From Escherichia coli (GTDB lineage Bacteria; Pseudomonadota; Gammaproteobacteria; Enterobacterales; Enterobacteriaceae), in assembly GCF_003790525.1 (NCBI RefSeq), contig NZ_CP033635.1: 64,000 nucleotides of DNA, one strand, 5' to 3'. The notes beneath the pieces were generated by a model. It was not told the DNA's origin. It saw nothing but the letters and a program-made list of their open reading frames with translations, and did not search any database. A program made the position numbers and the translations under genes. This document shows positions 22,375 to 59,788 of this stretch, in pieces (position 1 is the first letter of the stretch; each line of letters opens with the position of its first letter).

Positions 22375-22405
22375 CTAAAAAGCGCCTGCGGGCGCTTTTG
22401 CATGG
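22375..22405 (+). terminator. serS terminator hairpin containing the prophage attL core (22385-22399)
   Basis: aaaaagcgcctgcgggcgctttt; CCTGCGGGCGCTTTT repeated at 59774-59788. Confidence 0.7.
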
Positions 22406-22554
22406 TACTTAACTATATGAAAATAAATGGATTTTATTTTCATGTGTCCAGATAATGTCCATCTTTGAAGAAAAAAGTCCACAATACTGACGTTGTGGGC
22501 TTTTCTTTTTCCTGATGGTGTCGTGCCGTCAGTGCAACGAACCAAAGGGAGGGG

Positions 22555-22782
22555 ATGTTGATGTTGTTTTCCCTTCGCACCAGCTTTAAAGCCACTCTTG
22601 TTAACGATGATGGTACGCCACGGATCACGGCCGAGGTGAGGAATGTGACACCTGATGATATCGGGAAGGTGGCGGAACTTGTCAGGGATGTTTTTGGTAC
22701 TCCTTCCGGTACCTGCCGTTCAGACTCTGCGGCCAGGGTTGACAGGCAGGATGTTAACGCCGGGTGGCTTACGCGCCTCTGA
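22555..22782 (+). CDS. Hypothetical 75-aa protein at the attL end
   Basis: Strong SD GGGAGGGG before the ATG; preceded by a terminator hairpin. Confidence 0.35.
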   Translation: MLMLFSLRTSFKATLVNDDGTPRITAEVRNVTPDDIGKVAELVRDVFGTPSGTCRSDSAARVDRQDVNAGWLTRL

Positions 22783-22932
22783 ATGATGATGCCCTCACTG
22801 GTGAGGGTGACAAAAAAGCCCTCTCAATGGCGGGCAAATCTGGTTTTTTGTTTTGTCTCTACAGGGAAAGGGCGCCATATCGGCCCACCCCAACAACCGG
22901 ATAGCGGGGAATTTCTCCCCCGCTGCGGTTTC

Positions 22933-23073
22933 TTACGGTTTACACTGCAAGAACGCCGCAAAACGCGCTCCCCAGATATCAAAGCTGAATTCACATAACG
23001 AATCGTGGACCATCCAGATGACCAGGGTTATTGTCAGGCATAAAATGCCAACAATAATCGTTTTTTGCGGTAT
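22933..23073 (-). pseudogene. Hok/Gef-family toxin paralog with ATA in the start position
   Basis: Frame gives IPQKTIIVGILCLTITLVIWMVHDSLCEFSFDIWGARFAAFLQCKP; same length and context as the intact copy at 24938-25078. Confidence 0.45.
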
Positions 23074-23173
23074 AGCGCTTGCTCCTTTTACAAAGAGGCG
23101 CTAACCTTCCACTTGTCACGGTAGGAAGGGTCAGGCCTCGGTTAAACACAGATGTTTTCCGGGGCCTTTCCAC
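22991..23173 (-). CDS. Mok-like reading frame overlapping the hok-like ORF
   Basis: ORF overlaps the hok paralog in another frame; paralog of 24945-25178. Confidence 0.3.
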   Translation of the reverse strand: MERPRKTSVFNRGLTLPTVTSGRLAPLCKRSKRYTAKNDYCWHFMPDNNPGHLDGPRFVM

Positions 23174-23283
23174 ATCCGGCCTTCAGGTTTTCCCTCCGGC
23201 CATCAGCCGAAAGGCACCCGTTTCTTTTTGTTGCGGCAATATTTCAGGTGTCAGTTGGGGTGGGCTGTATCTTGTCTGATGCA

Positions 23284-23382
23284 TAAAAAAATGCCCGCGC
23301 TTTGGCGGGCAAAAGACAAGACTTTTCGTTTGTATATCATGGATAATGGACACCCCTTCCTGTTGTCAGGTGGCAGGCACCC
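23284..23382 (-). ncRNA. Candidate small RNA or leader unit X1
   Basis: Minus-strand -35 TTGAGA (23412-23417), 17-bp spacer, -10 TAGATT (23389-23394); ends at hairpin plus U-run. Confidence 0.3.
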
Positions 23383-23486
23383 GTGGTTAATCTACTGTTT
23401 TTGTGCTTTTGTCTCAACCCTGAAGTTTTCATGGAAAATCAGGGTTGCTTCATATGTGCCAGGAAGGTGCGGCTATGATAACTGCC

Positions 23487-23578
23487 AAAAAAAGCCCGCT
23501 TTCCGGCGGGCAAAACAGCAATGTGAGTTGTCTGTCATTGATACTGGACAGCCTTCCTGTTGTCAGGTGGAAGGTACC
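23487..23578 (-). ncRNA. Candidate small RNA or leader unit X2
   Basis: TTGAGA-N17-TAGATT on the minus strand, then terminator. Confidence 0.3.
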
Positions 23579-23930
23579 CGTGGTTAATCTACTGTCTTTG
23601 TGCTTTTGTCTCAACCCTGAAGTTTTCATGGAAAATCAGGGTTGCTTCATGTGAACCAGGAAGGTGAGGCGATGGTAACCGCCAAAAAAATGCCCGCTTT
23701 CCGGCGGGCAAAACAAGGAAGTACGGATCATGTATTATTGATTACGAGGCATTCCACCATGCCCACGTTTAATTTAGCTAGTTTTCATTTTATTCACAAT
23801 ATAGTTACTTATCATATTTATGAACAAAACTGTAATTTCATCTATAGGTATAAGTGATTTGCATTAACATGTTTCTTCTGTATTGCTGTTGGTTTTCCGA
23901 TGCTGATATTTATGATACATTCAGGGGCAA

Positions 23931-24002
23931 ATGAGGTTGTTCCACAGAAACGATGTTGAGATATTTCTGCTCCAGAAAGGACAAGCTAAAAAAATAAAGT
24001 GA
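23931..24002 (+). pseudogene. Disrupted paralog (Y1) of the small protein at 25756-25971
   Basis: MRLFHRNDVEIF... then premature stop; conserved AT-rich upstream region. Confidence 0.3.
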
Positions 24003-24135
24003 AATTATGATATGTCAGGGATGTTCAGGCATGTCAGTGTCTTATTAATAAACTCGTTGCTGCTGTAATAACACCAAAAAAATCAAAGCATAATCTGCAT
24101 GTTGTTCCTGATGACCCAATAACCACAAAAGAATA

Positions 24136-24228
24136 AAAAAATGCCCGCTTTCCGGCGGGCAAAACAGCAATGTGAGTTGTCTGTCATTGATACTGGACAC
24201 CCTTCCTGTTGTCAGGTGGAAGGCACCC
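24136..24228 (-). ncRNA. Candidate small RNA or leader unit X3
   Basis: TTGAGC-N17-TAGATT on the minus strand, then terminator. Confidence 0.3.
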
Positions 24229-24586
24229 GTGGTTAATCTACTGTCTTTGTGCTTTTGGCTCAACCCTGAAGTTTTCATGGAAAATCAGGGCTGCTTTGTG
24301 TGCGCCAGGGAAGGCGCCTCGATGGCAGGCGCAAAAAAAATGCCCGTGCTTCGGCGGGCAAAATAAGGAAGTACAGGTTACATGTTATTGATAAAGTAGC
24401 ATTGCTCTGTCCGTCTTTAATCTAACGAGTTTTGAGTTTTTTCACAATATTGTTACCTGTCATGTTATAGATGAAACTGCAATTTCATCTATAGGTATAA
24501 ATGATTTGTATTAATGTGTGTCCACTGTTTGTCTGCTTTCTGGTTTTCAGTTGACTGTGTTTCTGATGAATTCAGGAGGTTGTCTT

Positions 24587-24685
24587 ATGAGGCTGTTCCA
24601 CAGAAACGATATTGAGATTGAACTGCATTTCTCCTCCGGTGAGGATAAGGTTAAATCATTGTTGATGAAAAAAACAAAGATTTAA
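24587..24685 (+). pseudogene. Truncated paralog (Y2) of the small protein at 25756-25971
   Basis: MRLFHRNDIEIELHFSSGEDKVKS then divergence and stop; SD AGGAGG. Confidence 0.3.
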
Positions 24686-24815
24686 TTTATTGATATAAAG
24701 GATTTGTATCAGCGTATGTCCACGCAGTGACCACATTTTCGAGAGGTAGAGTAAGCCCGCAACATTGCGGGCTTTGTCTTATAGTCTGATCACTGTTTCA
24801 AGTCGGTGAGGACAC

Positions 24816-24852
24816 CAAAAAGAAAACCCGCAGTTTTTATGCTGCGGGTTTG
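24816..24852 (-). terminator. Intrinsic terminator downstream of the hok-like gene
   Basis: Minus strand aaacccgcagcataaaaactgcgggttt plus T-run. Confidence 0.6.
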
Positions 24853-24937
24853 TTGTTCATGTCTGTGAGATAGGGTGCCTTATCGACCTTACCCTGGCAA
24901 CCGATTGACGGGGGATTGCTCCCCCGTCGCGGTTTCC

Positions 24938-25078
24938 TTACTTCTTACATTGTAAGAACGCCGCAAACTCCGCTCCCCAGAAGCTCATCCGTATTTCGCA
25001 CAGCGAACCGTGCAATATCCAGATGATGAGGATTGCCGTCACGCAGAACGTGATGGCCGTAAGCGATTTTTGCGACAT
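24938..25078 (-). CDS. Hok/Gef-family type I toxin homolog (46 aa)
   Basis: MSQKSLTAITFCVTAILIIWILHGSLCEIRMSFWGAEFAAFLQCKK; TM helix plus SLCEIR...AAF as in Hok; SD AAGGAG. Confidence 0.65.
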   Translation of the reverse strand: MSQKSLTAITFCVTAILIIWILHGSLCEIRMSFWGAEFAAFLQCKK

Positions 25079-25178
25079 AGCACTTGCTCCTTTTCCGGAG
25101 AGGCGCTAACCTTTCACTTGTCAAGGTAATGCGGTTAGGGCCTCGGTTAAACAGAAATGTTTTCCGGGGCCTTTCCAC
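24945..25178 (-). CDS. Mok-like reading frame overlapping the hok-like ORF
   Basis: ORF track; overlaps the hok homolog in another frame. Confidence 0.3.
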   Translation of the reverse strand: MERPRKTFLFNRGPNRITLTSERLAPLRKRSKCYVAKIAYGHHVLRDGNPHHLDIARFAVRNTDELLGSGVCGVLTM

Positions 25179-25314
25179 ATCCGGCCTTCAGGTTTTCCCT
25201 CCGGCCATCAGCCGAAAGGCACCCGCGCGTAATTTAACTGTTTCTTTTTGTTGCGGCAATATTTCAGGTGTCAGTTGGGGTGGGCTGTATCTTGTCTGAT
25301 GCATAAAAAAATGC

Positions 25315-25400
25315 CCGCGCTTCGGCGGGCAAAAAACAAGACTTTTCGTTTGTATATCATGGATAATGGACACCCTTCCTGTTGTCAGGGGGAGGTACCC
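25315..25400 (-). ncRNA. Candidate small RNA or leader unit X4
   Basis: -35 and -10 hexamers kept (TTGAGC, TAGATT) while the 17-bp spacer differs from X1-X3. Confidence 0.3.
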
Positions 25401-25755
25401 GTAGCTAATCTACTCACTTTGTGCCCGCAGCTCAACCCTGAAGTTTTCATGGAAAATCAGGGCTGCTTTGTGTGCGCCAGGGAAGGCGCCTCGATGGCAG
25501 GCGCAAAAAAAATGCCCGCTCTCCGGCGGGCAAAACAATGATCTACGTCACATTATATTGATAACCGGGCATTCCTCCATGCCCATTTTTAATTTAGCCA
25601 TTTTTCATTTTGTTCACAATATAGTTATCTATCATATTCATGAATGAAATTATAATTTCATCTATAGGTATAAATGATTTGTGTTAATATGTTTCTCCTG
25701 TCTAACTGTTTTCTCATTTTTCGATACTAGTATTTCTGATATATTCAGGGGGCGT

Positions 25756-25971
25756 ATGAGATTGTTCCGAAGAAACGATATTGAGATTGAACTGCATTTC
25801 TCCTCCGGTGAGGATAAGGTTAAATCAATAAAGGTGAAACTAAGACATGCCCGGGATGTTCAGGCGTGTCAGTGTCTTATTGATGAACTCGTTGCTGCCG
25901 GAGGAACGCCAAAAAAACAAAAATATAATCTGCACGTGGTTCCTGATGACCCCATAACCACAAAAGAATAA
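25756..25971 (+). CDS. Hypothetical small protein (72 aa), intact member of the three-copy 'Y' family
   Basis: MRLFRRNDIEIELHFSSGEDKVKS...; SD AGGGGG; AT-rich upstream region. Confidence 0.45.
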   Translation: MRLFRRNDIEIELHFSSGEDKVKSIKVKLRHARDVQACQCLIDELVAAGGTPKKQKYNLHVVPDDPITTKE

Positions 25972-26113
25972 AAAAATGCCCGCTTTCCGGCGGGCAAAAA
26001 ACAATTTAGGTCATATTTCATCATGGATAATTAAATACTTGCCCGTGGTTGCGGGAAAGTATCTGCCGTTAATCTACTTGCCTTATGATGTCCTCTCAAC
26101 CTGATTATTGTTC

Positions 26114-26365
26114 TTAAATATCAAGATTAATCTGAGTATTCCCCCTGTGAGATCCCGGAAAATCTTCCCACGGTATCCGCTCTGTACCCTGCGGCGACGG
26201 GGCGCGTTTTGATGTGAATTTGTTAAAACCCTCCAGTGTGGTAAAGCCGATCCCGCATTCGAGGTTATTGCACTGGTAGTACTTCAGGCGAACTGTGCCT
26301 GAATCATTTTCATTGCGACTGGTGCGGATACGTGCGGATGCACCGCATAGGGGACAACGGAACAT
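26114..26365 (-). CDS. ogr: Ogr/Delta-type zinc-finger late-gene activator
   Basis: MFRCPLCGASARIRTSR...YYQCNNLEC resembles P2 Ogr C2C2 finger. Confidence 0.85.
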   Translation of the reverse strand: MFRCPLCGASARIRTSRNENDSGTVRLKYYQCNNLECGIGFTTLEGFNKFTSKRAPSPQGTERIPWEDFPGSHRGNTQINLDI

Positions 26366-26408
26366 GGCTTCTCCTTATCTGGCTGAGTGGAGATGGCTCA
26401 TTTTAATT

Positions 26409-27500
26409 TTATCCGCCTGAATCTGCTATCCATTCGGGGATTTTCGCTTCCAGCTCCAGTTGTGTGGTGAAGCCGCTTTCATCTATGATGTGCTCCACCC
26501 TGGCAATAATCCAGTCCTGATTGTCCACCTCGCTTTTAAAACCTGTTACCCTGCCGTGCATTTCGGGATACAGGTCGGCACGACCCCGTGCCAGAGTGAT
26601 GGAGAATGCCGCTGCTCCCCGCTGTAACTCCTGCCACTTTGCCGCAGCTGCACGTCGTGCGGTTTCTTCATTCTGGTAAGTCCTGCGCAGAACGTAGACG
26701 TTCCCTTCCGCGCCTTCCATGTAATCACCCTCCCGGCTGCTGCTCTTCTCCTGTTTCTGTTTCCCGGCTTCCCTGCGTCGCTTCACGTTCACTTTTTTCT
26801 TGTGCCCGAACTTCAGATCGAGCCAGTGCGCCCGGACCCCCGTATACGCATCACGGTCAGCAATGCGAAAGCGGTGACTGTCGCCGCTGCTGCGGGTAAT
26901 GGCGAACGAAGGCAGGGCTCTTCCGTCCGGCCCGGTTCCGCCACCCGGCAGAATGAATAACAGGCTGCCGTTTTTTACGGTGGCAATCGCACCCAGCATT
27001 TCAGCCATGCGGGTCAGGAAGGATATATCGCTCTCTTCGGTCTGGTCAGCGTGGTCAATTTCGATATCCATGAGGATTTCGCTTATCTGTGTCTTCAGGC
27101 CGTAGCGGTGAGCGATGGCTGACACAACCTGTTTTACGGTCACGTCGTGCCAGGATACCTCCCGCCTCACGTTGAACTCTTCCCGAAAATCTGCGCTGCT
27201 GGCGGTGATGATCAGTTTATCTGGAGGTCCTTCCCACGCAACCTCATCAACGACGTAGGTGCCCTTGTTAACCAGTGATTCTCCTCGCCAGCCAATCATC
27301 ACTCTCAGGCGTGCGCCACGTGGTGGCAACTGTAACTGCCCGTCCGTATCGTCAAGGGTGAGGGTGACGCGGTCTGCCTCAAAGGCCCGGTTATCCGTCA
27401 GGGTCAGCGTCATGAGTCGCTCTGTGAGGTTTGCCAGTGTGTTGTTGTTGATGGTGATGTCGATATCCGGTGACGGAACGGTAACTGACAGCTCTTTCAT
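26409..27500 (-). CDS. D: P2 gpD-like tail protein
   Basis: TLTDNRAFEADRVTLTLDDTDGQ...SWHDVT...REGDYMEGAEGNV resemble P2 D; start at MKELSVT with SD AGGAGA. Confidence 0.85.
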   Translation of the reverse strand: MKELSVTVPSPDIDITINNNTLANLTERLMTLTLTDNRAFEADRVTLTLDDTDGQLQLPPRGARLRVMIGWRGESLVNKGTYVVDEVAWEGPPDKLIITASSADFREEFNVRREVSWHDVTVKQVVSAIAHRYGLKTQISEILMDIEIDHADQTEESDISFLTRMAEMLGAIATVKNGSLLFILPGGGTGPDGRALPSFAITRSSGDSHRFRIADRDAYTGVRAHWLDLKFGHKKKVNVKRRREAGKQKQEKSSSREGDYMEGAEGNVYVLRRTYQNEETARRAAAAKWQELQRGAAAFSITLARGRADLYPEMHGRVTGFKSEVDNQDWIIARVEHIIDESGFTTQLELEAKIPEWIADSGG

Positions 27501-54020: not shown

Positions 54021-54245
54021 CTCTGTAGTTGCAAGTTTTGAAAACTCACCATCCAGAGGTTGCAATTCTGGGTGGCGAGACGTACAGGGTTGCAACCACC
54101 GGCAACTACAGAAACCGGCCCGACCGAAGTCGGCCCCATACGCCCCGCCATAATTCTGGCGCGAAAAAGACGTGGCGATACGGTACGCACAAAAAAACCG
54201 CTGGCGCGGTTGTGCGCTGTAGTTGTCAGCGGGGGTTGCAATCCC
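54021..54245. repeat. Cluster of GTTGCAA(C)/TAGTTGCAA motifs in a 320-bp intergenic region
   Basis: Six copies in both orientations at about 54026, 54057, 54087, 54101, 54219 and 54233. Confidence 0.45.
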
Positions 54246-54332
54246 GGCACCCGTTTTATGAGGTGCAGCGGAAATGTAACCTGACTGATTGCGGCATGGC
54301 AAGCGGTTTTTTTGTGTGTGCATAGTGGTTAC

Positions 54333-58682: not shown

Positions 58683-59687
58683 GTGCTGATCATGTCGATT
58701 AAGCAACTCAAAGACGGACGTTATCAGGTTGATGTAAGGCCTCAGGGGGCGGGAGGAAGGCGGATTCGTAAGATTTTCACCCTGAAATCAAAGGCGCAGG
58801 AATTCGAAAGATACGTTCTTCAGAATTTCCACAATAACCCGTGGCAGGCAAGGCCCGCCGATCAACGGCGGTTATCAGAACTGATTGAGGTGTGGTGGAT
58901 GCTTGATGGTCGTAATCAGGCATATGGTGATACCTACAGAACCAGACTGGAGAAGGTGATACGTGAAATGGGGGACCCGCGCGCCAGCCAGATGACACGA
59001 AAATTCGTGATTGAGTATCGCTCGGATAAGTTGCAGGCGGGACTGATGCCGTCCAGTATCAATCGCGACCTGTGCGCCTTATCTGCGATGTTTTCGTTGT
59101 TAATTGACGCGGAGGTTTATCATAACGAAAACCCTGTGCGCGGAATACGTAAACTCAAGGTTCAGAATACAGAAATGGCCTTTCTTTCAGATGACGAGAT
59201 TGATCGCCTTCTGAAACGGCTTGAGGGTGATGCACGACGCATTGCCATTCTGTGCCTTTCGACCGGGGCCAGATGGAAAGAGGCGTCAACGCTTCGCGGG
59301 GAACACATCGTGGGTAACAGGGTGACGTTCTTTAACACAAAGAACGGGAAATCGCGCTCGGTTCCTGTAGCTGATTCCGTTGTGCCGTTAATTAAAACCC
59401 GCCGGACCGGCCTGTTATATCAGGTTGATTATCTCAGTTTCAGGGAGATCCTTCAGGAGGTGAAGCCCGACTTACCCAAAGGGCAGGCCACGCATGTCAT
59501 GCGGCACACGTTCGCCACGCATTTCATGATGAACGGCGGGAACATCGTCACGTTGCAGAGGATCCTGGGTCACGCCACGATTCAGCAAACGATGACGTAT
59601 GCGCATTTTTCACCGGACTTTTTACAGGATGCGATCAGCTTTAATCCGCTGGCTGAAAGTGTCCATAAACTGTCCATCGACCAGTAA
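58683..59687 (+). CDS. int: Tyrosine integrase (P2 Int-like)
   Basis: KQLKDGRYQVDVRP...AILCLSTGARW...HVMRHTFATHF...LGHATIQQTMTYAHF close to P2 Int. Confidence 0.9.
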   Translation: MLIMSIKQLKDGRYQVDVRPQGAGGRRIRKIFTLKSKAQEFERYVLQNFHNNPWQARPADQRRLSELIEVWWMLDGRNQAYGDTYRTRLEKVIREMGDPRASQMTRKFVIEYRSDKLQAGLMPSSINRDLCALSAMFSLLIDAEVYHNENPVRGIRKLKVQNTEMAFLSDDEIDRLLKRLEGDARRIAILCLSTGARWKEASTLRGEHIVGNRVTFFNTKNGKSRSVPVADSVVPLIKTRRTGLLYQVDYLSFREILQEVKPDLPKGQATHVMRHTFATHFMMNGGNIVTLQRILGHATIQQTMTYAHFSPDFLQDAISFNPLAESVHKLSIDQ

Positions 59688-59773: not shown

Positions 59774-59788
59774 CCTGCGGGCGCTTTT
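59774..59788. other. attR core CCTGCGGGCGCTTTT
   Basis: Identical 15-mer at 22385-22399. Confidence 0.7.

What the first reader, a model, noticed from the sequence alone, without database searches (positions are those of the whole stretch)
23931..25971. Three-copy small-protein family with only one intact member
Three paralogous units share an AT-rich upstream region, an SD and an MRLF(H/R)RNDIEIELHFSSGEDKVKS N-terminus. Only the 72-aa copy at 25756-25971 is full length. I do not recognise the protein.
Basis: seen in the sequence. Interest (0 to 1): 0.5.

Follow-up and report, generated by a model that had tools for sequence, protein, structure and literature searches.

The report
Prophage cargo gene with decayed copies
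A 71-residue protein gene at the end of a P2-like prophage in E. coli is real and belongs to an unstudied family of phage accessory proteins, and its two neighbours are broken copies left by reshuffling between related phages; it is an ordinary but uncharacterised phage cargo gene.

Summary
There are three homologous units, starting at 23931, 24587 and 25756, and only 25756-25971 is intact (71 aa plus stop).

- **Copy 1** (23931-24136) is a pseudogene with 8-nt and 2-nt deletions and a nonsense codon.
- **Copy 2** stops matching after codon 24, at a junction with a second prophage-end element.

The window is E. coli. A 37-kb P2-like prophage sits in the serS terminator, and the units lie in its cargo region between the attachment site and ogr.

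The 71-aa protein is not a chance ORF. It is a diverged (42-52% identity), stand-alone version of the C-terminal domain of a 126-133-aa protein family, PHROG 14142, whose function is unknown. That family lies next to the attachment site of P2-like prophages across Enterobacterales, either beside ogr or directly after C-int. All invariant family residues are kept.

No Pfam, NCBIfam, PADLOC, PDB or fold match exists. AlphaFold gives a low-confidence beta-hairpin plus helix.

Much of the repeated DNA between and upstream of the copies carries minus-strand sRNA-like genes (promoter, stem-loop, terminator). The form studied here occurs in only 30 of 5,426 complete E. coli genomes.

My best guess for function is a small soluble accessory binding protein made in lysogens. 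This is inferred, not shown.

The parts
25756..25971 (+). Copy 3: the intact 71-aa gene (WP_001236182.1). It is a stand-alone homologue of the C-terminal domain of the PHROG 14142 family.
   Evidence: ORF and translation. RefSeq CDS. PHROG hit. Alignment A1/A2.
23931..24136 (+). Copy 1: full-length pseudogene with an 8-nt deletion after codon 11, a 2-nt deletion and a nonsense codon. The C-terminal tail is still recognisable.
   Evidence: Alignment A3. Translations. tblastn of P0009.
24587..24685 (+). Copy 2: truncated. Homology to copy 3 ends at 24658 (codon 24), and the ORF then reads into junction DNA up to a stop.
   Evidence: Intact versions of this allele exist elsewhere (L014, L019).
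25538..25755 (+). AT-rich (30% GC) upstream region and 5' UTR of copy 3. It contains the invariant block TTTCATCTATAGGTATAA, a TATAAT hexamer and the SD AGGGGG. Homologous regions lie at 23716-23930 and 24366-24586.
   Evidence: Promoter assignment is inferred only.
25969..26102 (-). S5: a minus-strand sRNA-like unit directly downstream of ogr. It has a TTGAGA-17-TAGATT promoter, a 5' stem-loop with loop CAACCA, and a terminator. Its terminator T-run overlaps the stop codon of copy 3.
   Evidence: promoter at 26099-26071, terminator at 25996-25977. Fold z = -3.8. Alignment A4.
25304..25435 (-). S4 sRNA-like unit, upstream of copy 3.
   Evidence: (family D1).
24134..24266 (-). S3 sRNA-like unit, convergent with copy 1 and sharing its stop/terminator arrangement.
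23284..23617 (-). S1 and S2: two tandem sRNA-like units (S1 23284-23420, S2 23486-23617).
   Evidence: promoters at 23417 and 23614; terminators at 23311 and 23511..
25506..25601 (-). T3: a second kind of minus-strand hairpin-plus-terminator unit, divergent from the ORF promoter region. Paralogues are T1 at 23684-23781 and T2 at 24334-24430. The 3' 50 nt are homologous to the S units.
   Evidence: Weak rseX-like Rfam hit well below threshold.
24672..24800 (+). Second prophage-end (P' arm-like) element abutting truncated copy 2. It contains GTCCACGCAGTGACCACAT plus a hairpin and is homologous to the ihfA-site prophage end in L015.
   Evidence: Alignment A5.
24847..25230 (-). hok/sok-type type I toxin-antitoxin locus. 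The intact 46-aa Hok ORF is at 24938-25078. A degenerate paralogue lies at 22842-23230.
   Evidence: PHROG 251 at E = 8.5e-22. NCBIfam Hok models match below their curated cutoffs, E = 2.4e-7 and 1.8e-4. Rfam sok at 46-48 bits, below the gathering score of 59. RefSeq annotation.
22385..22510 (+). attL: the 15-bp core CCTGCGGGCGCTTTT (22385-22399, repeated at 59774-59788) followed by the phage arm with GTCCAG/GTCCAT repeats and a hairpin.
26114..26365 (-). ogr/Delta-type late-gene activator. It marks where the conserved P2-like late region begins.

Best explanation
**What it is (well supported).** The 71-aa ORF is a genuine protein-coding cargo ('moron') gene of a rare P2-like prophage lineage of E. 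coli. It is a diverged, stand-alone derivative of the C-terminal domain (about 50 residues, predicted beta-hairpin plus helix) of an uncharacterised 126-133-aa protein family, PHROG 14142. That family lives within a few hundred bp of the attachment site of P2-like prophages. It sits either on the ogr-side arm or directly downstream of C repressor and int.

**Why there are three copies.** This is not a functional multigene family. Copies differ by about 20%. Each comes packaged with sRNA-like units, and one also with a hok/sok locus. Strains exist with one copy, two copies or fused copies. This pattern fits modular recombination between related phages' attachment-site-proximal cargo regions. 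One copy stays intact and the others decay.

**How it works (inferred, low confidence).** The product is a small soluble cytoplasmic domain whose conserved residues look structural. I propose it is made in the lysogen and acts by binding another macromolecule. The likeliest role is a phage-competition or host-modulating accessory factor, like other single-gene cargo of P2-like prophages.
For: **Real gene and family membership**
- PHROG 14142 hit at E = 4.9e-12.
- An exhaustive phmmer search finds P0009, P0010 and P0011.
- The family has more than 40 clusters across Enterobacterales.
- The alignment is gapless over residues 1-50, and every invariant position is kept: M1, L3, D8, E10, E12, L29, R30, C38, L41.
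- dN is 0.09-0.5 with dS saturated. Omega is 0.04-0.36 where measurable.
- The SD and ATG sit exactly at the family's conserved Met72 position.

**Prophage cargo**
- RefSeq context is serS, then the array, then ogr, gpD, sheath and tube.
- The att core is a 15-bp direct repeat, with int at the far end.
- The same gene lies next to ogr at the copA, ihfA and cycA-like sites.
- Full-length relatives lie between the host junction and ogr.
- In 23 IMG/VR loci a relative lies immediately after C-int. In L047 it starts 10 nt after the int stop and has its own GGAGG.

**Mosaic origin of the copies**
- (the L002, L062, L014 and L019 variants).

**Soluble small domain**
- No TM segment or signal peptide is visible in the sequence.
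- AF2 predicts strands 9-15 and 23-29 and a helix at 35-47.
Against: - No functional evidence of any kind exists. There are no hits in Pfam, NCBIfam, PADLOC or PDB.
- Structure models have low confidence (pLDDT 54-62), and fold searches return only family members or noise.
- The form is rare, in 30 of 5,426 complete E. coli genomes.
- Damaged alleles are common: copies 1 and 2 here, a +1 frameshift in the A-run in L013, and P0005.
- One intact allele carries D8N at an otherwise invariant position.
- No convincing sigma-70 promoter could be assigned.
- There is no plus-strand terminator after the stop codon.
Confidence: 0.5

Rival explanations
1. Decaying remnant. The 71-aa ORF is a leftover C-terminal fragment of the 128-aa gene. 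It happens still to be open, has no function of its own and is on its way to loss, like copies 1 and 2.
For: - 5'-truncated remnants of the family, called as '57-aa proteins' from Met72, are widespread. In L015 and L005 the in-frame upstream sequence still shows N-domain residues after stop codons.
- Disrupted alleles of the E. coli form are frequent.
- It occurs in only 0.55% of complete E. coli genomes.
Against: - At 42-52% identity to every relative, it still has no frameshift or stop and keeps all invariant residues.
- Nothing upstream resembles the N-domain. Instead there is an AT-rich region with an SD and an ATG.
- The ORF is annotated as a CDS in all 30 genomes that carry the module.
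- It has acquired a specific 19-residue tail that copy 1 also keeps.
Confidence: 0.2
2. Integrase/attachment-site accessory factor. The family modulates site-specific recombination, for example integration, excision or secondary integration at prophage ends. That would explain its constant position beside the attachment site.
For: - Family members always lie within about 50-400 bp of the att core or arm repeats, on either arm.
- In 23 loci a member follows int directly while the C repressor allele varies from 52 to 100% identity. In 22 of these int is 99-100% identical. In L047 the gene starts 10 nt after the int stop.
- The window itself shows stacked prophage-end modules.
Against: - The E. 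coli 71-aa gene lies 3.4 kb from the att core here and about 1 kb from the prophage's host-proximal end in strain CM2.
- P2-like phages already encode Cox as a directionality factor, and L047 has a Cox-like gene.
- No DNA-binding fold or motif was detected.
- Positions next to att are general cargo sites (bioRxiv 10.64898/2026.02.27.708500).
Confidence: 0.15
3. RNA-controlled module. The ORF and the convergent S5 sRNA, which share a hairpin at their 3' ends, together with the divergent T unit, form a regulatory or type I toxin-antitoxin-like pair.
For: - The ORF has no plus-strand terminator, so its mRNA should read antisense through S5. All eight GCCCGC hairpins terminate minus-strand transcripts.
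- S units and the 71-aa gene co-occur strictly: the same 30 E. coli genomes, the same 3 IMG/VR contigs, and none of 100,044 species-representative genomes.
- Copy 1 has the same convergent S3 arrangement (family D3).
Against: - The protein is hydrophilic, with no membrane segment.
- Full-length relatives have ordinary terminators and no S unit.
- C-domain-only remnants persist without any S unit, so the domain is unlikely to be toxic.
- S and T expression is only predicted, and covariation support is weak.
- Duplex predictions to the ORF 5' UTR are no better than shuffles.
Confidence: 0.1
4. Chance ORFs in repeated non-coding DNA.
For: The units lie in a region rich in non-coding repeats, and two of the three ORFs are broken.
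Against: There are significant protein-level homologues in other genera with conserved residues and saturated synonymous divergence.
Confidence: 0.02

Closest known systems
PHROG 14142 (uncharacterised prophage protein family of 126-133 aa, e.g. Salmonella/Citrobacter 'hypothetical protein' P0009)
   Same: Residues 1-56 match profile positions 72-127 at E = 4.9e-12. The same conserved motif is present: M-x-L-x-x-R-N-D-I-E-I-E-L ... V-K-L-R ... D-V-x-A-C-x-x-L-I-D-x-L. The genomic niche is also the same: P2-like prophage, near the att site, convergent with ogr.
   Different: It lacks the whole 71-residue N-terminal domain. It has an unrelated 19-residue C-terminal tail, and its own AT-rich upstream region and SD. 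It lies 1-3 kb inside the cargo region rather than directly next to the arm. Identity is only 42-52%.
Single-gene lysogenic-conversion/exclusion cargo of P2-like phages (P2 old, tin, fun(Z))
   Same: A non-essential, variable gene carried in a cargo slot of a P2-like prophage, and probably expressed in the lysogen. (This rests on established knowledge of P2 and on the hotspot survey read.)
   Different: There is no sequence or fold similarity and no PADLOC hit. The ogr-att slot is not among the P2 defence hotspots named in the passages of that survey read. No exclusion phenotype is known.
Type I toxin-antitoxin loci with convergent, 3'-overlapping RNAs (e.g. par of pAD1; txpA/ratA). hok/sok sits in the same array.
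   Same: A small ORF is convergent with a small RNA gene and shares a terminator hairpin. Real hok/sok loci sit in the same repeated modules.
   Different: The product is hydrophilic and belongs to a family of larger soluble proteins that have no partner RNA. Toxicity has not been shown.
AgvB-type prophage anti-sRNAs (Tree et al. 2014, PMC4104026). This comparison concerns the flanking S units, not the protein.
   Same: Short prophage-encoded RNAs in several copies, each with a variable 5' stem-loop, a C/A-rich motif (GACAACA against the CACAACA GcvB target motif) and a conserved terminator.
   Different: The Rfam AgvB model scores only 18-23 bits against a gathering score of 56. The phage type differs (P2-like, not lambdoid). 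No expression or GcvB data exist.

Membership tests
PHROG 14142 | Significant match to the family HMM | tested here: met
   E = 4.9e-12, 46.9 bits, residues 1-56 to profile positions 72-127. Reciprocal check: the profile of A1 recovers P0001, P0002 and P0003 at E = 3e-17 to 3.5e-15.
PHROG 14142 | Full two-domain architecture (about 128 aa, N-terminal domain plus C-terminal domain) | tested here: not met
   Only the C-terminal domain is present. tblastn with four N-domain queries finds nothing upstream in any frame.
PHROG 14142 | Conserved residues of the C-terminal domain | tested here: met
   All invariant columns of A2 are kept: M1, L3, D8, E10, E12, L29, R30, C38, L41.
PHROG 14142 | Att-proximal position in a P2-like prophage | tested here: met
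   The gene lies between attL and ogr here and in L002, L013 and L062. Relatives lie in the same slot or after int.
Type I toxin-antitoxin system | Small hydrophobic or otherwise toxic peptide | tested here: not met
   The sequence is hydrophilic, with 13 K/R, 11 D/E and no hydrophobic stretch. Toxicity cannot be tested here.
Type I toxin-antitoxin system | Antisense RNA overlapping the toxin mRNA | tested here: inconclusive
   The predicted S5 unit is convergent and shares the terminator hairpin. Transcripts were not observed.
Rfam AgvB (RF02702), for the flanking S/T units | Score at or above the gathering threshold of 56 bits | tested here: not met
   18.3-23.2 bits.
Known anti-phage defence systems (PADLOC-DB v2) | Match to any defence protein model | tested here: not met
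   No family at E <= 1 for the 71-aa protein or for P0009, P0010 or P0011.
P2-like (Peduovirus-type) prophage cargo gene | Located inside att-delimited P2-like prophage, outside the conserved late/early gene blocks, variable between relatives | tested here: met
   att repeats, int, and ogr, gpD, sheath, tube and GpE. The slot holds ORF75, HicAB, hok/sok or nothing in relatives.

The most novel reading that the evidence does not exclude
The strictly co-occurring set of the 71-aa gene, the convergent S5 RNA, the divergent T RNA and the extra S copies could be one functional unit: a new kind of RNA-controlled prophage accessory module. For example, it could be an sRNA array with variable C/A-rich loops that sponges host sRNAs such as GcvB, coupled to a small effector protein. 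The PHROG 14142 domain would then be a previously unrecognised effector used by P2-like phages and their satellites at attachment sites.
Probability: 0.1. Interest if true: 0.6.

Novelty: new variant of a known kind. Interest (0 to 1): 0.3.

Why it matters
PHROG 14142 is a widespread family with no assigned function. It sits at a fixed place, beside the attachment site, in P2-like prophages of many enteric pathogens, and in one lineage it directly follows the C repressor and integrase genes and so may be co-transcribed with them. A function for it would add to the catalogue of what temperate phages do for, or to, their hosts.

The E. coli short form shows that the roughly 50-residue C-terminal domain can persist on its own. 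That makes it a convenient minimal construct for testing.

The locus is also a clear example of how prophage-end cargo regions grow by stacking modules from related phages and then decay. It carries an unreported set of sRNA-like genes.

None of this is surprising in kind. The value is as a lead, not as a discovery.

Tried and rejected
**Library and sequence searches**
- Pfam, NCBIfam, PADLOC and PDB sequence searches, with single sequences and with profiles, gave no hit.
- tblastn of the 71-aa protein against 50,697 phage records gave no match.
- A literature search for WP_001236182 found nothing.

**Structure**
- AF2 with a 22-23-sequence alignment gave pLDDT 54.5 and 62.

**Hypotheses tested and dropped**
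- ORF75 (22555-22782), which occupies the arm-adjacent slot here, is not a diverged N-domain: hhalign probability 0.2%.
- Copy 2 was not clearly truncated by canonical integration into the ORF. The arm-like element is there, but the expected core is absent. The true core of this phage type is a terminator hairpin, so the origin of the junction stays open.
- My first guess for the att core, the A/T-rich TGAAAATAAATGG, was wrong. The real repeat is CCTGCGGGCGCTTTT.
- Upstream boxes for Fur, LexA, CRP, FNR and ArcA are no better than shuffles.
- A palindromic operator in the promoter region is strong only in copy 2, weak in copy 3 and absent in copy 1.
- 'Intact copies keep a consensus -10' is contradicted by L019, which is intact but has TGCAAT.
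- S-RNA pairing with the ORF 5' UTR or with the ogr translation start is not better than shuffles or than 176 other start regions.
- Covariation in the S stem-loop gives 1 compensatory pair among 7 sequences, which is not above controls.
- The Pas sRNA preprint and the AgvB paper do not describe these units.
Full report
**1. The observation**

Reading 23400-26600 and listing ORFs shows three ORFs that start with ATGAG(A/G)(T/C)TGTTCC, at 23931, 24587 and 25756.
- The first is 23 aa.
- The second reads MRLFHRNDIEIELHFSSGEDKVKSLLMKKTKI from its ATG.
- The third is 71 aa from its ATG, or 96 aa from an upstream GTG.

Repeat finding and self-BLAST show that the ORFs are parts of longer units:
- 23487-24164 matches 25306-25999 at 81% identity.
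- 24133-24658 matches 25303-25827 at 82% identity.

A four-way alignment and in-frame translations define the state of each copy.
- **Copy 1.** It is homologous over the entire gene, down to a homologous stop at 24134-24136. It carries an 8-nt deletion after codon 11, a 2-nt deletion and a nonsense codon at the R30 position.
- **Copy 2.** It is identical in protein sequence to copy 3 for 24 codons except R5H. At 24658 it is abruptly replaced by other DNA.
- **Copy 3** (25756-25971). It is intact at 216 nt, which is 71 residues plus the stop codon, not 72 residues.

The main correction is that the long N-terminal consensus applies to copies 2 and 3 only.

**2. Where this is**

The segment is 100% identical to chromosomes of several E. 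coli strains. RefSeq annotation of one of them gives the order ftsK-lolA-rarA-serS, then an almost unannotated 3.7 kb, then a P2-like late region. In the unannotated stretch only a Hok/Gef protein and 'hypothetical protein WP_001236182.1' (copy 3) are called. The late region holds ogr/Delta, the late-control D protein, sheath, tube, GpE and the tape-measure protein.

A tyrosine integrase lies at 58683-59687. A 15-bp direct repeat, CCTGCGGGCGCTTTT, occurs at 22385-22399 and 59774-59788. It is the serS/STnc130 terminator and bounds a prophage of about 37.4 kb. GTCCA(G/T)...GTCCAT repeats lie just inside both ends. By analogy with P2 attP I take them to be Int arm-type sites; this is inference.

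The three copies therefore lie in the variable cargo region between attL and ogr.

**3. Anatomy of the repeated region**

From left to right:
- attL core and phage arm;
- a 75-aa ORF of unknown function (22555-22782);
- a degenerate hok/sok locus;
- two 'S' units;
- a 'T' unit, an AT-rich region and pseudogene copy 1;
- S3;
- T2, an AT-rich region and truncated copy 2;
- a second prophage-arm-like element (24672-24800);
- an intact hok/sok locus (Hok at 24938-25078 on the minus strand; PHROG 251 at E = 8.5e-22; Rfam sok at 46 bits, below threshold);
- S4;
- T3, an AT-rich region and intact copy 3;
- S5;
- ogr.

All eight GCCCGC...GCGGGC hairpins are followed by T-runs on the minus strand only. 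In S1, S2 and S5 a TTGAGA-17-TAGATT promoter-like site lies about 100 nt upstream on the minus strand; S3 and S4 have TTGAGC in its place.

The predicted S RNAs are about 95-100 nt. They fold into a 5' stem-loop with a C/A-rich loop (GACAACA, or CAACCA in S5), an unstructured middle and a terminator (z = -3.8 for S5).

These features make the S units good sRNA-gene candidates, with limits:
- Covariation support is weak.
- No Rfam family reaches threshold. AgvB, RyhB and rseX appear only at 18-26 bits, driven by the terminator.

S5 lies directly after ogr on the same strand, so it also serves as ogr's 3' UTR and terminator. Its T-run overlaps the stop codon of copy 3. The plus strand has no terminator after the ORF.

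**4. The protein is real and has relatives**

Close relatives are few and all from E. coli. However, the 71-aa sequence hits PHROG 14142 at E = 4.9e-12, aligned to positions 72-127 of a 128-position profile. An exhaustive phmmer search of 1.84 billion representatives found three more distant relatives: P0009 (128 aa), P0011 (133 aa) and P0010 (57 aa), at 42-47% identity.

Searching with P0009 and then with the family profile gave 71 clusters. They are all 'hypothetical' and carry no Pfam domain. They come from Salmonella, Citrobacter, Enterobacter, Klebsiella/Raoultella, Yersinia, Pectobacterium, Kosakonia, Yokenella, Pantoea and Sodalis/Symbiopectobacterium.

In the alignment the E. coli protein aligns without gaps over its first 50 residues to the C-terminal half, and its Met1 aligns with the family's invariant Met72. 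It keeps every invariant or near-invariant residue.

Between family members dN is 0.09-0.5 while dS is saturated. Where dS can be estimated, omega is 0.04-0.36. The ORF is therefore not a chance reading frame.

**5. It is a domain-only derivative**

- No trace of the N-terminal 71 residues exists upstream in any frame. Instead there is a 30%-GC region, an SD and the ATG.
- The last 19 residues (KKQKYNLHVVPDDPITTKE) have no counterpart in the family, but copy 1 retains them.
- Many '57-aa' database entries (P0059-P0074, P0010, P0063) are not independent short genes. They are 5'-truncated remnants that gene callers start at Met72. In L015 and L005 the in-frame upstream sequence still reads ...CFSADAPDKLNIIFELLIRARKFAEVI- or ...FIVTTQTRK-, preceded by stop codons.
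- The E. coli 71-aa form differs from those remnants. It is much more diverged, yet intact and equipped with its own translation signals.

**6. Genomic niche of the family**

Full-length members sit between the host junction and ogr, convergent with ogr. Examples are Klebsiella at yccJ and an unnamed contig. Another sits at a prophage end next to raiA in Salmonella.

A scan of IMG/VR gave 41 loci, nearly all with the gene within a few hundred bp of a predicted prophage end.

In 23 of them (L034, L036-L057) a diverged full-length member follows the P2-type C repressor and integrase directly. In L047 it starts 10 nt after the int stop with its own GGAGG, and the arm repeats and the ihfA-terminator core come next. 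In 22 of these loci the integrase is 99-100% identical while the C allele varies from 55 to 100% (52% in L034, whose int differs), so the gene travels with the int/att module.

In P2, C and int are transcribed from Pc in the lysogen; this is established knowledge of P2. The arrangement therefore suggests, by inference, expression during lysogeny.

One 15.7-kb contig carries both a C-domain copy at the ogr end and a full-length copy after int (L021 and L052).

A short copy also lies after the primase and iterons of a P4-like satellite. A recent survey lists the primase-att interval of P4 and the int-att interval of P2 as minor defence hotspots (bioRxiv 10.64898/2026.02.27.708500).

**7. Origin of the three copies**

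The copies differ by about 20% in DNA, so they are not recent tandem duplicates. Other strains show other arrangements:
- **CM2, at copA:** arm-ORF73-S-S-T-ORF-S5-ogr, with a single intact copy.
- **L013, at ihfA:** HicAB in place of ORF75. The ORF has a +1 frameshift in its A-run that removes only the tail.
- **L062, at serS:** lacks 24659-25827, so 'copy 2' and copy 3 form one intact gene.
- **L014 and L019:** intact ORFs with the copy-2-type 5' UTR.
- **L060:** the complete three-copy array next to a different host gene. The array is therefore carried by the phage and did not accumulate in place at serS.

The element abutting truncated copy 2 aligns with the ogr-side arm of ihfA-site prophages. 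In L015 the sequence beyond that arm holds a truncated family gene followed by the same hok/sok locus.

The simplest reading is recombination between cargo regions of two related phages. It inserted arm'-hok/sok-S-T-ORF into, or next to, the resident ORF, and decay of the redundant copies followed. The canonical att core is missing at this junction, so I cannot say whether Int made it.

**8. What the protein might do**

Every library search was negative: Pfam, NCBIfam, PADLOC and PDB.

AlphaFold models are weak, with pLDDT 54.5 for the 128-aa protein and 62 for the 71-aa protein. They agree on a beta-hairpin (residues 9-15 and 23-29) packed against a helix (35-47). Fold searches gave only noise or family members.

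The conserved residues alternate in the pattern of an amphipathic hairpin: D-I-E-I-E-L opposite V-K-L-R, plus the hydrophobic face of the helix. They look structural. The loop and the tail are variable.

The protein has no membrane segment or signal peptide. I therefore commit, with low confidence, to a small soluble binding module that the prophage produces as accessory cargo. A role in phage-phage or phage-host conflict is the likeliest class, and a role linked to Int/att is the main alternative. The sections on the best and rival explanations give what would refute each.

**9. Rarity and verdict**

The 71-aa form and the S/T units occur in the same 30 of 5,426 complete E. coli genomes and in the same three IMG/VR contigs. 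They are absent from 50,697 phage records and from 100,044 species-representative genomes.

It is a real but narrow variant of an uncharacterised phage accessory family, embedded in a mosaic, partly decayed cargo array. Interest is modest. The most useful leads are the unknown function of PHROG 14142 and the unreported sRNA-like units.

Noticed in passing
window 23284-23617, 24134-24266, 25304-25435, 25969-26102 (minus strand): Five copies of an sRNA-like unit ('S'). Each has a TTGAG(A/C)-17-TAGATT promoter-like site, a 5' stem-loop with a C/A-rich loop (GACAACA or CAACCA) and a strong terminator. No Rfam family reaches threshold. The units occur only where the 71-aa gene occurs. The loop resembles the GcvB-target motif of the AgvB anti-sRNA.
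   Followed up: partly
window 23684-23781, 24334-24430, 25506-25601 (minus strand): Three copies of a second hairpin-plus-terminator unit ('T'), divergent from each ORF's upstream region. Its 3' 50 nt are homologous to the S units. On the plus strand the same hairpin (GGGCATTCCTCCATGCCC followed by a T-run) looks like a terminator that would insulate the ORF from upstream transcription.
   Followed up: partly
window 22385-22399 and 59774-59788: A 15-bp direct repeat, CCTGCGGGCGCTTTT, which is the serS/STnc130 terminator. It delimits a P2-like prophage of about 37.4 kb. The identical phage left end also lies next to a cycA-like permease gene (L060), whose terminator contains the same 15 bp.
   Followed up: yes
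window 24847-25230 and 22842-23230 (minus strand): Two hok/sok-type loci in the cargo array. The right one has an intact 46-aa Hok ORF (24938-25078). The left one appears to have lost its start codon (ATA). The Rfam sok model scores 46-48 bits, below its gathering score of 59.
   Followed up: partly
window 22555-22782 (+): A 75-aa ORF directly after the phage arm. The same protein is found in 64 index blocks of public assemblies and has a 73-aa homologue in strain CM2. It has no PHROG or PADLOC hit and is unrelated to PHROG 14142 (hhalign probability 0.2%).
   Followed up: partly
window 54068-54155 and 54191-54266 (minus strand): C4 antisense RNA (80 bits) and isrK (60 bits) lie side by side inside the P2-like prophage. 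This is a P1/P7-type immunity or antirepressor control element in a phage of another type.
   Followed up: no
L034, L036-L057 (e.g. L047 4409-6183): In 23 IMG/VR prophage ends a full-length family member follows C repressor and int directly. In L047 it starts 10 nt after the int stop with a GGAGG, and the arm repeats and the ihfA-terminator att core follow. In 22 of these loci int is 99-100% identical while the C allele varies (55-100%), so the gene belongs to the int/att module.
   Followed up: partly
L015 6788-7174; L005 5959-6174: Many database '57-aa proteins' of this family are 5'-truncated remnants of the 128-aa gene, called from the conserved internal Met72. In the P0009-like subfamily a GAGG or GGGG lies 6 nt before that Met, so the C-domain might also be made by internal initiation.
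   Followed up: partly
L003 7400-7700; L005 5440-5700: Dense arrays of short direct repeats (GTGACGG/GTGATGG and GTAATAAAAT/ATTACA) lie next to family genes. They look like iterons of P4-like satellite origins and suggest satellites sitting beside these prophage ends.
   Followed up: no
L013 3768-4344: In an ihfA-site relative the slot that holds ORF75 here is filled by a HicA/HicB toxin-antitoxin pair. This shows that the arm-adjacent position is an exchangeable cargo slot.
   Followed up: no
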